From assembly GCA_964187785.1 (NCBI GenBank), contig OZ076409.1:42224001-42288000 (forward strand): a DNA stretch of 64,000 bases, written 5' to 3'. The translations under genes were made by a program, and so were the position numbers. Positions 44,973 through 53,436 of the stretch are shown piece after piece (the first letter of the stretch is position 1; each line of letters starts with the position of its first letter). The stretch comes from Amphiscolops sp. MND2022 (Eukaryota). The notes under the pieces are model-generated. The model did no database searches. It had not been told where the DNA came from and saw only the letters and a list, made by a program, of their open reading frames with translations.

Positions 44973-45502
44973 TGTAACACACCAGTAATATCACACGTGT
45001 TCTGTGATAAAGGGTGTGTATTTTTTCCTGTTTTACGTAATATTGTTTATTTCATTCATTTCTAATCACTGACAGTATTATTTCATCTTTTTGGCTGCGA
45101 ATAGTGAAAACCACAGGTTGCCAAGAATGCGTCGCTAATCGATCCGCATACTGCCAAATACTCTTTTTTGTAAATCCGGATACTGCCGCATACAGTTGCG
45201 TATTACCACATTTCAATTGCATCAGTTCTAAAATTTAGAATGAGTCAATCAACCACGCTGGCAGACGTGATTGACATTTAATTAGCCAATCATAATCAAG
45301 CATTTTCATGCCAGTTTGCGTAAAACTGTTATTTTCGCTTTTTGCCTTTTCTTTACGCCACGCTTTGTCTATCCACAGTTTTATCGGCTAAGAACAAAGT
45401 GAAATCAGTAATTATTGTAGTGTATCGCAGTCTTCACAGGTTCAATTTTCATCATAGCTTCCTCTCATAGACCCGACATCTATTCATATAACATTTGTTA
45501 CA
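44973..45502 (-). repeat. 3' LTR (530 bp)
   Basis: 7-bp terminal inverted repeat, directly preceded by a polypurine tract. Confidence 0.75.
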
Positions 45503-48366
45503 TTCCCTTTCTTCGTTTTAATTTCCATTTGCTTGTCTCAGTTATATGCAAATTCCTTGCTGTTTTGATCTTCGTATCGACATGGATTCAAATCCTGGAT
45601 CGGATTTCCTCGGAAAACGGAAGTCTCGCAAAGAACGAGCCCCCTTCAACGGGATGACTTCCAGGACAGTGACTTGCCACCTGAGCTTCCATTTTGTAAG
45701 TTCAACATGCCTCATTTTGATTTCGATTTGTTTTGGTTTGCTTGAAGTTCCAGTTTTTTGCAAGGCTGGCCAGGCCTGCATAGAGAATGAAAATAGCTAG
45801 ATCAATATCTGACACCAAATTCAGAAGAATTTTGGAAACGTTTCCGTTTCTAACTTCTAAGCGACTTCCGTTCTTCGTTTTATTTCCTGTCCCCGTGTTC
45901 GGTTCAAGAAATAATGAAACGATTTCCGCACGCAAGATTTGTTTCATTTCCTTTAAAGAAATAATTTGCTGGTTTCAGTTGAACGAGAATCTGCACCAAT
46001 GACTCAAGTCAGTTCACCGGATAAGGTATATGCTCCTTTACAAGTGGTTACACCACGGACTTTGGGACGTTTTGTTGCAGCAGAATCACCTGCACTCGTC
46101 CTCTGCAAGTTGTTGAAGGGCAAAACATTGGATTTCCAAGTACGCTGACAGCGGTTAGAGATCCCATTGAAAATCTTGAAGAGTTGGTTCAACAAAAGGA
46201 AAATCTGCCACCAACGTCTAGCATAACTGCACCTGAAATTGCTCCCAAGTCAAAATCCATGGATAAACCGTTTGGTGATTTTGCCCAGGATCTCTTCGGA
46301 ACTTCGGACTATGCCTGTACTTCACACGTCGCATCTCCGCGGTTCAGCCAATTTGTCCAACGGACAGAAAATCTTGCAAATGAGCCGATATTTTCTCACA
46401 CTCTCACACAAGATGCAACCATTAGCCAAGTGTATGACGAAGATCCCGCTGGCATTCAGATTGCTCAAAATGCGGTTACTTTCTCTGGAGAGACACTTCC
46501 TAACTTTAAGAATACCAGACAAGAAGTACTCGTTTTAACAAATGTCCCTGGACGATATTCTCAGACTCTTATCAACCAACCGTTATTTCCCACTGTGGTA
46601 GACGACCTCACACCCACAACGAGGGTCACAACGTCCAGTTACGAAGATTTGGGTGGAAGTATTGGTACTGAAGTTGTCCTTCAAGGAAACGATCAAGGTC
46701 CCACAACGTCCCGGGGCAAACGACGCAGACTCAAATACTCTCTAACTGGGAGTATATTTAAACGACACCCCGGTCTGAAATTCTCTGCGATTGGTCCACT
46801 AGATAACGACAAATCACCGTACAAGTGGTGGTGTCGGGTGTTCCGTGTCGAGTTGTCCCTCATGAGTCGAGGATGTTTGGAACTCATCTCTCATTATCGC
46901 TCTGACTCACACTTACTTAAGGAACATCGCGTCCGGATGGAGGTACCGTGGATGCCACATTTCGATGAGGAGGAGAGGGAGTTATTAGGAGTTGCGCTCC
47001 AGAATGCCAAGAAGAAAGCGAAAGTTACTTATCCCATTCCCCCACAACTTCACTCGTATCGACCACTTGTTGGCCAAGAATCAGTTCCGGATTTTAGTGC
47101 CGCAATAAGTACTACTGAGAAAATAGTATCCCAGATCAACTTCTTAGAGTTTGGCTGGAGGCATGGAGGAAGTGTGTCAAGCTTAACTGGGATGCACGAT
47201 GAACTGGTACGATTGACTTCAAGTGATCATCTGTCAGTGCAAAATTGAAATCAACAGGGACTTTTTGTAAGTCTCATTTCATTGTGTAAAAACCAGTTTT
47301 TGTTAGTTTAGGCAAAATTTTCCTCAATTTGGCACCAACAAGTTGTCACCTCAATTTTCCTACCAATACAAATTGGCACCAACATTACATCTGTAACATT
47401 GATTCACGATAAACCACTAGAGTATAAACGATCCTTCTGTTTTTGGGGTATACAAGTCTACATGTTTCGATAGTTGATGGATTACTGCGTCAAAGCTATA
47501 TCTTCTTCTGGACAGTACTTATTGACAGTACAACATTCGAATACTGCAACTTTCGTTATCCTCTGCTTTTGGTCCGAAACGTTATACACCGATTTTTCAT
47601 TGGTGGGGCCCCTCGTGGAAAGATTCTCCTACGGAAAATTCTTTCTCTTGTGGCTTCAATTCTGAGCTTATTCGAAACAGCCCCAACTTGCGTGTTTCTC
47701 ATTGGTTTTGGAAACTAACTCATTGACTGTTTGAATTCTTCCTTGCCTGGTGTCAAAATTCTTCAATTGTGAGTTCCTTTGGACCTGCAGAGCCACCCCT
47801 ACCGTCCAAATTATTGAGCATCATGACTTCAGGACCATCCTGGATTTCTTATTGATCAAACACAGGAGTGCTTTGGACCGGGATTGGCTACTGAACTTGA
47901 CGCTGTTACACAAGGTAATTTATTTACCTATTGTCATCCTCGTCTATTTCTCGCTGAAGTTTCCACTTTTCTTTTGTACAGTCTTCAATTGGAATACACG
48001 CTTGCCGAGGCCTCCAGCATCATTGAGATTTTGTCAATCCATTGGGAGCGCGTACGGGATCTTTTGAACTGAGTTGCAAGACTATTCGCGAATCGCTTCC
48101 ATATGAGAGAGGTAACTATCTTTATCTTTCTTTTCCCGTAGATAATTTTCAGCTTCTCATTACTAAATTATTTTCAGCCAGATACCCTTGATGAATGCTT
48201 TTGTCGGGACACGGCTTTTTTAGCCAGACTTTTCCTCAAGCGATGTGTTCTTGACCACTGTTAGTTTATTTTCCTTCATTATTTTCATAAGTAACACTTT
48301 CAACTATTTTGAACACGTGTAAATACATCTTCTTGTAGGTAAAAACCTCCATTGTTCAGCAGCTTT

Positions 48367-51736: not shown

Positions 51737-53436
51737 AAACAATTCCTGGTTTACTTGTTTGAAAGGACGGTATCTTGTCGCTGGTGGGTCCGATGTGACC
51801 CGTGGAATCTCCTGCGATCTCTCTTTGCACTTGTTTGGATCCGATGTGATCAGTAACACACTTCTCTCACTGTATCTTCACGCGCTCCGTCCCTCCAACT
51901 TTGAGAGTAGCTACTTAGTCGCTCTAGCTCTAGCGAAAAGTTGTGAAGATTGAGTAGTTGATTAATTAGTCTCTTGGTCCTAAGACCCAACTTGACTATA
52001 GCTATTCAGTCGTCAAAATTTCTATCTAATAATGGTATAATCATCGTTTACAACTCTTCAGTGAATCAAAGCAAATATAAGTAAATATAATTAAATGGCA
52101 TTTAAAGCATAATATGAAGTTATTGGCTAAGTAAACAAACTTTGTGGTGGTTTTGGCATGTTGGTTAGGTGAGTTAGAAGGTATGTTTACCCAATGTCGC
52201 TCTAGCTCTAGCGAAAAGTTGTGAAGATTGAGTAGTTGATTAATTAGTCTCTTGGTCCTAAGACCCAACTTGACTATAGCTATTCAGTCGTCAAAATCTA
52301 TATCTAATAATGGTATAATCATCGTTTACAATTCTTCAGTAAATCAAAGCAAATATAAGTAAATATAATTAAATGGCATTTAAAGCATAATATGAAGTTA
52401 TTGGCTAAGTAAACAAACTTTGTGGTGGTTTTGGCATGTTGGTTAGGTGAGTTAGAAGGTATGTTTACGCAATGTCGCTCTAGCTCTAGCGAAAAGTTGT
52501 GAAGATTGAGTAGTTGATTAATTAGTCTCTTGGTCCTAAGACCCAACTTGACTATAGCTATTCAGTCGTCAAAATCTCTATCTAATAAAGGTATAATCAT
52601 CGTTTACAATTCTTCAGTAAATCAAAGCAAATATAAGTAAATATAATTAAATGGCATTTAAAGCATAATATGAAGTTATTGGCTAAGTAAACAAACTTTG
52701 TGGTGGTTTTGGCATGTTGGTTAGGTGAGTTAGAAGGTATGTTTACGCAATGTCGCTCTAGCTCTAGCGAAAAGTTGTGAAGATTGAGTAGTTGATTAAT
52801 TAGTCTCTTGGTCCTAAGACCCAACTTGACTATAGCTATTCAGTCGTCAAAATCTCTATCTAATAATGGTATAATCATCGTTTACAATTCTTCAGTAAAT
52901 CAAAGCAAAAAAAGTAAATATAATTAAATGGCATTTAAAGCATAATATGAAGTTATTGGCTAAGTAAACAAACTTTGTGGTGGTTTTGGCATGTTGGTTA
53001 GGTGAGTTAGAAGGTATGTTTACGCAATGTAAACATCATTAATTTCAACAGAGTTACTATTCCTTCAAGGTCACATGAGAAAATCACATAATAATTAATA
53101 CATCAAAATTGGGTAATTCAAGAGGTCCGACCTTGGTCACTTTAGGTGTTAATTGCTCGGAACACAGGAGAGACACGGGGTTCGGTGTTTTGAGTGAAAT
53201 GTTGAGTTAGCATGCTCTCAGGTATGCCCTCTGGTATATGCATGCTAACTTTCAGGGTTATTGGACAAAAGCTTCTCAAAGAGGGGAGTGGTGTTATTTT
53301 ACACGAGGCCATTTTTGCTAAAAGTTGTAATTTTCAGACTACAATCTTGATAAAGTTTCTGAAAGTTTTGAGTTCTAAGTTTCATAAGTCACGTTGAAAT
53401 TAGAGTTTCTGATCTTGCAATTGACTGGCGCCAACA
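51737..53436 (-). repeat. BEL/Pao LTR copy, 3'-truncated, with 4 x 278-bp internal tandem
   Basis: Homologous to 2575-3402; units start at 51919, 52197, 52475 and 52753. Confidence 0.88.

What the first reader, a model, noticed from the sequence alone, without database searches (positions are those of the whole stretch)
44973..51737. Gypsy element with a spliced antisense zinc-finger gene between integrase and PPT
Seen: on the minus strand, integrase ends near 50840 and the PPT plus LTR come about 5.3 kb later. The space is filled by plus-strand coding fragments that start (ATG 45582) 80 bp from the LTR and end near 50640, converging on pol, with GT-AG signals and a Cys/His finger. Known: antisense introns survive retrotransposition, and HTLV-1 HBZ is a spliced antisense gene driven from the 3' LTR. 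Inference: an accessory gene expressed from the 3' LTR, possibly derived from a hAT-like transposase (finger plus AFDP motif; weak evidence).
Basis: partly seen in the sequence, partly recalled or inferred. Interest (0 to 1): 0.72.

Follow-up and report, generated by a model that had tools for sequence, protein, structure and literature searches.

The report
Transposase-derived backward gene in retrotransposon
A broken jumping gene of the copy-and-paste kind carries, facing backwards, a spliced gene that looks like a disarmed cut-and-paste enzyme, which would show one transposon adopting another's protein as an accessory, but only one copy could be seen in its surroundings.

Summary
The layout is real. 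The minus strand carries a Gypsy integrase tail (stop 50831-33), a PPT (45503-19) and a 530-bp LTR-like end (44973-45502). Between them lies a convergent plus-strand gene of about 1,000 codons with five introns. This copy is dead (at least 4 stops and 7 frameshifts), and the element's RT and RNase H are missing. Relatives with long open frames are many: 51 clusters, 651 sequences including fragments. They keep the intron-2 donor (45 of 51) and a constrained finger core (71% identity, against 16-17% in linker and intron). The protein has a BED-like finger, an RNase H fold and a hAT-dimerisation-like tail, but lacks the first catalytic Asp (0 of 9) and the CxxH motif (0 of 4). No TIR or TSD beats chance, and only 62 bp separate the PPT from the ATG. 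One metagenomic relative of the integrase also has a convergent antisense ORF, not shown to be homologous. Best reading (0.6): a heritable antisense accessory gene derived from a disarmed hAT-like transposase, probably a DNA-binding regulator. Not shown: that other copies lie inside the retrotransposon, or that the gene is transcribed. Antisense accessory genes are known in plants and fungi; a transposase origin in an animal element was not found in my searches.

The parts
44973..45502 (-). Putative 3' LTR, 530 bp, TG...CA with 7-bp terminal inverted repeat; poly(A) signal 45046-51 (minus); CCAAT at 45286 (plus)
   Evidence: signature alone weak; single copy in window
45503..45519 (-). Polypurine tract, 16 of 17 purines, abutting the LTR
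45582..45695 (+). Exon 1 (38 codons, basic cluster); the ATG frame and the frame needed at the donor disagree, so it is broken or the start is misplaced; no relative covers it
45696..45978 (+). Intron 1, GT-AG, 283 bp; its 3' half is recognisably similar in 4 relative clusters (P0001, P0009, P0010, P0014)
45979..47266 (+). Exon 2 (429 codons): acidic Ser/Thr/Pro-rich linker, basic cluster, BED-like Cys/His finger (about 46832-46930), helical region; one frameshift (46093), one stop (47246), finger broken at 46841
47267..47446 (+). Intron 2, 180 bp; donor position kept in 45 of 51 relatives; the acceptor is not canonical in this copy
47447..47914 (+). Exon 3 (156 codons): RNase H-like core without the first Asp or CxxH; 2 stops and 2-3 frameshifts
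47982..48111 (+). Exon 4 (about 43 codons; upstream acceptor uncertain; one stop); no relative covers it
48178..48259 (+). Exon 5 (27 codons) between introns 48112-48177 and 48260-48338; no relative covers it
48385..49600 (.). Two later insertions (ends approximate): an AT-rich repeat also found at 15424-15925, and a piece with 33-bp tandem repeats resembling the LTR-like end of the other Gypsy copies (6129-6220, E 2e-6)
49607..50680 (+). Last coding stretch (about 350 codons, stop unresolved at 50640-50680); hAT-dimerisation-like region near 50150-50270; 1 stop and 4 frameshifts against P0186 in 49769-50269
50749..50754 (+). AATAAA, candidate poly(A) signal of the antisense gene, in the spacer before the integrase stop
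50831..51736 (-). Gypsy integrase C-terminal part (GPY/F-type domain and tail), frameshifted, cut at its 5' side
51737..53436 (-). BEL/Pao-type LTR with a 278-bp x4 duplication, truncated at the junction with the integrase; not part of the gene
   Evidence: BEL identity inferred from the paralogue at 2487-3427 being followed by a primer-site-like stretch shared with the DUF1759-bearing element at 57587+

Best explanation
A family of Gypsy LTR retrotransposons in this (inferred animal) genome carries a heritable antisense accessory gene between integrase and PPT. The gene descends from a hAT-like DNA transposase that lost its ends and its catalytic residues. It is transcribed inward from the 3' LTR, spliced, and ends at its own poly(A) signal in the spacer. 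Its introns survive retrotransposition because they lie on the strand opposite the genomic RNA. The protein keeps a nuclear-localisation-like basic cluster, a DNA-binding finger, an acidic low-complexity region and the oligomer scaffold, so it most likely acts as a sequence-specific DNA-binding regulator of its own element, an activator or anti-silencing factor (about 0.45 given the rest; tethering of integration or RNA-level effects are the alternatives). Shown: geometry in one copy, splice-site conservation, protein constraint, fold class, missing motifs. Inferred: linkage in other copies, LTR promoter, expression, function. This copy is dead.
For: The gene fills the gap: 62 bp from PPT to ATG, and a plus-strand AATAAA 77 bp before the integrase stop. 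hAT elements need about 100-200 bp of end sequence (PMC10368747 passages). Best TIR+TSD score among 17,680 end pairs was 6 mismatches; 26 of 30 shuffles did as well or better. The family is large and deep: 51 clusters, 651 members including fragments, 131 representatives at 50% clustering, one a chance hit. Young subfamilies are 94-98% identical at the median and spread over 10-15 contigs each among the members listed, so the gene is still being copied. Constraint: finger core 71%, linker 17%, intron read-through 16% over 40 rows. First Asp 0 of 9 lineages, CxxH 0 of 4; both are needed for hAT catalysis (PMC4763223, PMC2533014 passages). A disarmed enzyme kept under constraint in dozens of amplifying subfamilies needs a carrier. 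L001, an independent integrase relative, has a convergent ORF of at least 97 codons 212 bp past its stop (194 of 20,000 shuffles). Basic cluster in 39 of 40; linker 15.5% D/E, 30% S/T/P.
Against: Only one copy of the gene was seen with flanks; no relative could be placed. The element is a wreck with several nested insertions and a deletion junction at 51736/7, so chance neighbours are common here. The LTR call rests on a signature expected 0.47 times per shuffled window. The LTR-like end of the gag-bearing copies in the window is unrelated to this LTR. The L001 ORF is not significantly similar to this gene's end (238 of 2,000 shuffles; no BLAST hit). The hAT assignment rests on language-model hits of 0.90-0.94 with 143-165 shared features, under the 170 typical of family members; Pfam gave no hAT hit, and Hermes was not among listed fold matches. 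Catalytic registers come from recalled motifs; the second Asp and the Glu are ambiguous, and one register keeps an acidic residue at the Glu place. Exon 1 has no support from relatives.
Confidence: 0.6

Rival explanations
1. The gene is the transposase of an independent, divergent hAT-like DNA transposon (active with unusual residues, or moved in trans) that landed in the short 3' region of this Gypsy copy and later lost its ends.
For: Full hAT domain order and spliced structure; many young dispersed copies; the window is full of nested insertions; any insertion in a short 3' UTR would fill the gap; acidic residues may survive at the second and third positions.
Against: No TIR or TSD above chance; 62 bp upstream of the ATG; first Asp and CxxH absent in all lineages seen, including young multi-copy ones; both ends would have to be lost cleanly; L001 shows a convergent ORF at the same place in the clade.
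Confidence: 0.2
2. The gene travels with this LTR and PPT, but the integrase tail belongs to another element (chimera by deletion), or the carrier is a non-autonomous LTR element. The gene is LTR-borne, yet 'between integrase and PPT' is an accident of this copy.
For: The upstream gag/protease-region copy has a different LTR-like end; one deletion could join that copy's BEL insertion to its own integrase; no second copy of this LTR was found.
Against: It needs a further break inside the 150-bp spacer; the spacer resembles that of L001 in position, length and AT-richness.
Confidence: 0.12
3. The 530-bp stretch is not an LTR. The gene is a host or other mobile multigene family of domesticated hAT proteins, and its place beside an integrase fragment is chance.
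For: Weak LTR signature; domesticated hAT proteins exist (Kat1, PMC4763223; the ZBED/FAM200-like atlas hits).
Against: Strand, PPT, poly(A) signal and spacing all agree with the integrase; clusters of 10-58 near-identical members on many contigs behave like transposon subfamilies; none of the members read carries a gene name.
Confidence: 0.08

Closest known systems
Antisense additional ORFs between pol and 3' LTR (aORF-3R) of plant Ty3/Gypsy elements: maize Grande gene23, rice RIRE2, Retand (PMC7264820, main text read; PMC11963269, passages)
   Same: Same place and orientation; similar gap (Retand 2.9-6.6 kb, here 5.3 kb); conserved across copies; nuclear, DNA-binding, regulatory role proposed.
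   Different: Those proteins carry TRP28 (PF04195, named 'Transposase 28', role unknown) or no known domain; the review says a TE-insertion origin lacks support because the ORFs do not resemble other TEs. Here the protein resembles a hAT transposase in two regions, has five introns and about 1,000 codons, and the host is inferred to be an animal.
brtn of Boty/BcGypsy1 in Botrytis cinerea (PMC7264820; PMC8365987 passages; the original paper was seen only as a reference title)
   Same: Antisense accessory gene in a non-plant Gypsy element.
   Different: Fungal element; no relation to this protein was tested or seen.
hAT transposases (Hermes, Kat1) and ZBED/FAM200/ZNF862-like derivatives (PMC10368747, PMC4763223, PMC2533014 passages)
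   Same: Order of finger, RNase H-like core, helical insertion, C-terminal dimerisation-like region.
   Different: No TIR or 8-bp TSD here; first Asp and CxxH absent; long acidic linker before the finger; no Pfam hAT hit.
HTLV-1 HBZ (named in PMC7264820 and PMC11963269 passages; splicing of HBZ is recalled)
   Same: Antisense gene with a promoter in the 3' LTR, nuclear regulator.
   Different: Retrovirus, bZIP protein, no common ancestry; analogy only.
ORF3 genes of bdelloid rotifer LTR retrotransposons (PMC5408684 passages)
   Same: Animal LTR elements that captured extra genes shared with other mobile elements.
   Different: Env, GDSL esterase and DEDDy exonuclease genes; the passages seen do not describe antisense orientation or a transposase.

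Membership tests
Ty3/Gypsy LTR retrotransposon | Integrase C-terminal domain at the end of pol | tested here: met
   55-57% identity to L001 (E 3e-37), which hits Integrase_p58_C at E 3e-5, below cut-off; the window's own pieces gave no Pfam or PDB hit of meaning
Ty3/Gypsy LTR retrotransposon | PPT followed by a TG...CA LTR with poly(A) signal | tested here: met
   signature alone expected 0.47 times per shuffled window
Ty3/Gypsy LTR retrotransposon | Two matching LTRs with a target-site duplication | tested here: inconclusive
   No second copy in the window; element truncated at 51737; no genome held
Ty3/Gypsy LTR retrotransposon | gag-PR-RT-RH-IN order | tested here: inconclusive
   RT, RNase H and integrase core are missing between 51737 and the upstream piece
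Antisense accessory ORF (aORF-3R) | Antisense, between pol and 3' LTR | tested here: met
   One copy
Antisense accessory ORF (aORF-3R) | Present in most copies of the family | not testable with these tools
   No flanks for any relative; L001 has a convergent ORF of unshown homology
Antisense accessory ORF (aORF-3R) | Conserved like a functional gene | tested here: met
   71% core against 16-17% linker and intron; donor in 45 of 51; protein-level only, no dN/dS
Antisense accessory ORF (aORF-3R) | Transcribed in antisense | not testable with these tools
   No run could be laid on the stretch
hAT transposon/transposase | N-terminal BED-type zinc finger | tested here: met
   CxxC...H...H/Q pattern in 50 of 51 relatives; zf-BED above cut-off in 1 of 24 proteins scanned and weak in 2; broken in the window's copy
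hAT transposon/transposase | RNase H-like catalytic fold | tested here: met
   Model of P0052, mean pLDDT 58, core 64-74, five-strand RNase H topology; matches RuvC, RNase H, integrases and sugar kinases: superfamily only
hAT transposon/transposase | C-terminal hAT dimerisation domain (PF05699) | tested here: inconclusive
   Atlas 0.94, 21 of 30 hits in clusters with PF05699; hmmscan no hit at E 10; no PDB sequence hit
hAT transposon/transposase | First catalytic Asp | tested here: not met
   0 of 9 lineages (Gln 5, Glu 2, Ser 1, Val 1); register from a recalled motif and the model's first strand
hAT transposon/transposase | Second Asp and the Glu of the triad | tested here: inconclusive
   An Asp lies near the end of strand 4 in 3 of 6 lineages, register uncertain; for the Glu one register gives Pro, another an acidic residue; one relative only
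hAT transposon/transposase | CxxH motif | tested here: not met
   0 of 4 relative lineages that span strand 5 (P0052, P0229, P0090, P0175)
hAT transposon/transposase | Terminal inverted repeats and 8-bp TSD | tested here: not met
   Best of 17,680 pairs no better than shuffles; one decayed copy only
hAT transposon/transposase | 100-200 bp of end sequence with subterminal repeats | tested here: not met
   62 bp between PPT and ATG; depends on exon 1 being right

The most novel reading that the evidence does not exclude
A whole clade of animal Gypsy retrotransposons has domesticated a cut-and-paste hAT transposase: the disarmed, five-intron gene rides antisense off the 3' LTR in dozens of co-diversifying subfamilies and supplies a DNA-binding factor that switches on, shields or targets its own element. 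It would be a traceable case of an antisense accessory gene born from a nested transposon.
Probability: 0.45. Interest if true: 0.8.

Novelty: new variant of a known kind. Interest (0 to 1): 0.62.

Why it matters
The origin and function of antisense genes between pol and the 3' LTR are open questions. The review I read (PMC7264820) names nested insertion of another transposon as a possible origin and says sequence similarity does not support it. A hAT-derived gene held in that slot would be such a case, in an animal. Its domains give a direct test of function (binding to its own LTR), and the many subfamilies allow a co-evolution test between finger and LTR. It would also mean that hAT-like hits in such genomes can be retrotransposon cargo, which matters for repeat annotation.

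Tried and rejected
No genome held. No sequencing run was listed; this is no evidence on expression. No locus encoding the finger protein in viral, metagenome or prokaryote contigs; no integrase relative in viral or prokaryote contigs; L001's record is not searchable. Pfam on 18 window ORFs gave nothing of meaning. The whole-P0001 model was poor (pLDDT 45) and its fold search empty. Hermes was not listed in fold searches of the exon-3 model; that does not exclude it. PDB sequence searches gave chance hits or none. Homology of the L001 ORF to the gene's end: looked plausible by eye, rejected by shuffles. GTAAGT at 49833 and 50067 as donors: rejected, P0186 reads through both. An 8-bp repeat around the first insertion (48363, 48926) is about what chance gives. 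Intron 1 minus strand has no unusual RNA fold (z -1.1); no Rfam hit. P0050, a gag piece fused in frame to the finger exon, shows nearness to this Gypsy clade at another locus but not orientation; not counted. P0169 was a chance hit and dropped. Five window ORFs found in the collection were singletons, five were absent, so gag and integrase could not be linked that way. Earlier findings: nothing by sequence, place or two word searches. Literature: no paper held all terms; searches listed nothing describing a hAT-derived antisense gene by title or abstract start. Subscription papers and Repbase/Dfam entries were not searched.
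Full report
Setting. The window is repeat-rich eukaryotic DNA with Gypsy, BEL/Pao-type and Polinton-like pieces. That mix points to an animal (inference); my guess of an acoel flatworm is recall and untested. No genome is held and no sequencing run was listed, so the evidence comes from this window, from protein relatives without flanks, and from one metagenomic contig.

The retroelement frame. On the minus strand an integrase tail runs from 51736 to a stop at 50833-31. 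It gave no meaningful profile hit itself. It is 55-57% identical to L001, found by a motif scan, and L001 hits Integrase_p58_C at E 3e-5, below the cut-off. 5.3 kb on lie a 17-base purine tract and a 530-bp TGTAACA...TGTTACA stretch with a poly(A) signal near its end. The flanks differ, so it is one end of an element. This signature occurs once in the window but 0.47 times in shuffles; the case for an LTR is the agreement of strand, order and spacing. At 51736/7 the integrase is cut against a BEL-type LTR. The gag and protease-region piece beyond has a paralogue at 2576-6232 whose LTR-like end is unrelated to this LTR, so it is not shown to belong here.

The gene. Relatives fix most of the structure. 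Exon 2 spans 45979-47266; 45 of 51 relatives carry the sequence that marks the donor at 47267. Exon 3 spans 47447-47914. P0186 covers 49769-50269 at about 70% identity. Exons 1, 4 and 5 rest on splice signals, frame and G+C (0.43-0.50 in exons, 0.26-0.38 in introns) and have no relative. Five introns and about 1,000 codons result. A plus-strand AATAAA lies at 50749. About 1.2 kb near 48385-49600 is later insertion. The copy is dead: in the three stretches with relatives there are at least 4 stops and 7-8 frameshifts, the finger is broken at 46841, and the intron-2 acceptor is not canonical.

The family. One search gave 51 clusters with 651 members; members include fragments, and several assemblies may contribute, so this overstates copy number. 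One search gave 131 representatives reaching down to 23-30% identity, one of them a chance hit. The window's own ORFs are in the same source, and one contig length appears in two clusters, so many are probably paralogues. Four large clusters have median identity of 94-98% to their representative, and the listed members lie on 14, 15, 10 and 13 different contigs. Across 40 aligned relatives the finger core is 71% identical, the linker 17% and the intron read-through 16%: constraint on the protein.

What the protein is. Residues 295-690 of P0001 resemble unnamed clusters and DUF4371/FAM200-ZBED5 clusters at 0.90-0.93. P0186 resembles Dimer_Tnp_hAT clusters at 0.94, 21 of 30 hits. Shared-feature counts (143-165) are those of distant relatives, and Pfam gave no hAT hit, except zf-BED in one distant member above cut-off. 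The exon-3 model (pLDDT 58 overall, 64-74 in the core) has RNase H topology and matches RuvC, RNase H, integrases and sugar kinases, not Hermes by name. I put a hAT-like origin at about 0.75. Using recalled hAT motifs for register, the first Asp is absent in 9 of 9 lineages and CxxH in 4 of 4. The second Asp and the Glu are ambiguous. Since D180 and CxxH are needed in Hermes and Kat1 (passages), the protein is probably not a nuclease.

Cargo or nested transposon. No TIR/TSD pair beats shuffles (26 of 30 shuffles as good or better); a wider scan with the left end inside the LTR found a best of 4 mismatches among 117,130 pairs, without a shuffle control. Only 62 bp lie between PPT and ATG, against 100-200 bp of end sequence needed by hAT elements (passages). 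A disarmed transposase that stays constrained and keeps multiplying in many subfamilies needs a carrier, and here it sits flush inside one. L001 adds that another element of the clade has a convergent ORF of at least 97 codons 212 bp past the integrase stop (194 of 20,000 shuffles), but it is not shown to be the same gene. Against this: one copy, in a tangle of insertions, with no flanks for any relative.

How it likely works (inferred). The 3' LTR drives a plus-strand transcript (CCAAT at 45286; antisense LTR promoters are known, PMC7264820). Introns on that strand are invisible to splicing of the genomic RNA, so they are kept through copying. The product has a basic cluster (39 of 40), an acidic Ser/Thr/Pro-rich linker and a finger on a hAT scaffold, which fits a multimeric DNA-binding regulator of the element's own LTR. 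Integration tethering or an effect of the antisense RNA itself are alternatives; none was tested.

Against what is known. Antisense ORFs between pol and the 3' LTR are established in plants and Botrytis (PMC7264820, parts 1-2 of 3 read; PMC11963269 and PMC8365987 passages); earlier scan notes on fungal cases pointed to the same literature and are not support. The review states that similarity to other TEs does not support a nested-TE origin, while noting a 'transposase 28' domain in Retand. Rotifer elements capture other genes (passages). PMC6431247, PMC13524379 and PMC9911081 passages showed nothing on such a gene. Searches found no hAT-derived antisense gene in an LTR element. It works like an aORF-3R. 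It is hAT-like by descent but fails the tested criteria for a hAT transposon.

Verdict. Observation confirmed; interpretation partly supported. New variant of a known kind; best reading 0.6; interest 0.62.

Noticed in passing
window 43433-44236, minus strand: A second coding stretch of about 270 codons with a CxxC motif and one stop, joined at 43459 to a piece of the other Gypsy's LTR-like end through a short shared sequence. No Pfam hit. It could be another accessory gene of a related element.
   Followed up: partly
window 2487-6289 and 51737-56180: Two copies, 83-90% identical, share the same junction between a Gypsy pol 5' piece and a BEL-type LTR: an old duplication or a composite that was itself copied.
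   Followed up: partly
window about 21755-34163, minus strand: Polinton/adintovirus-like gene set (polymerase-, capsid-, protease-, ATPase- and integrase-like ORFs, read by eye), fragmented.
   Followed up: no
window 51918-53030 and 58228-59231; 23-265, 10992-11220, 12968-13135: Near-perfect tandem copies (278 bp x4 at 98%, 338 bp x3 at 100%) and long perfect hairpins; may be assembly artefacts.
   Followed up: no
L001 1-296: Open frame of at least 97 codons converging on a Gypsy integrase stop, no Pfam hit: possibly a second kind of antisense gene in this clade.
   Followed up: partly
window 45821-45919 (intron 1): Intron sequence recognisably kept in four relative clusters whose proteins are far diverged; may hold a cis signal on either strand. 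No unusual fold.
   Followed up: partly
protein P0050; matches window 5051-5706 and 55167-55785: An ORF elsewhere fuses a gag N-terminal piece of the window's Gypsy clade in frame to the finger exon.
   Followed up: partly
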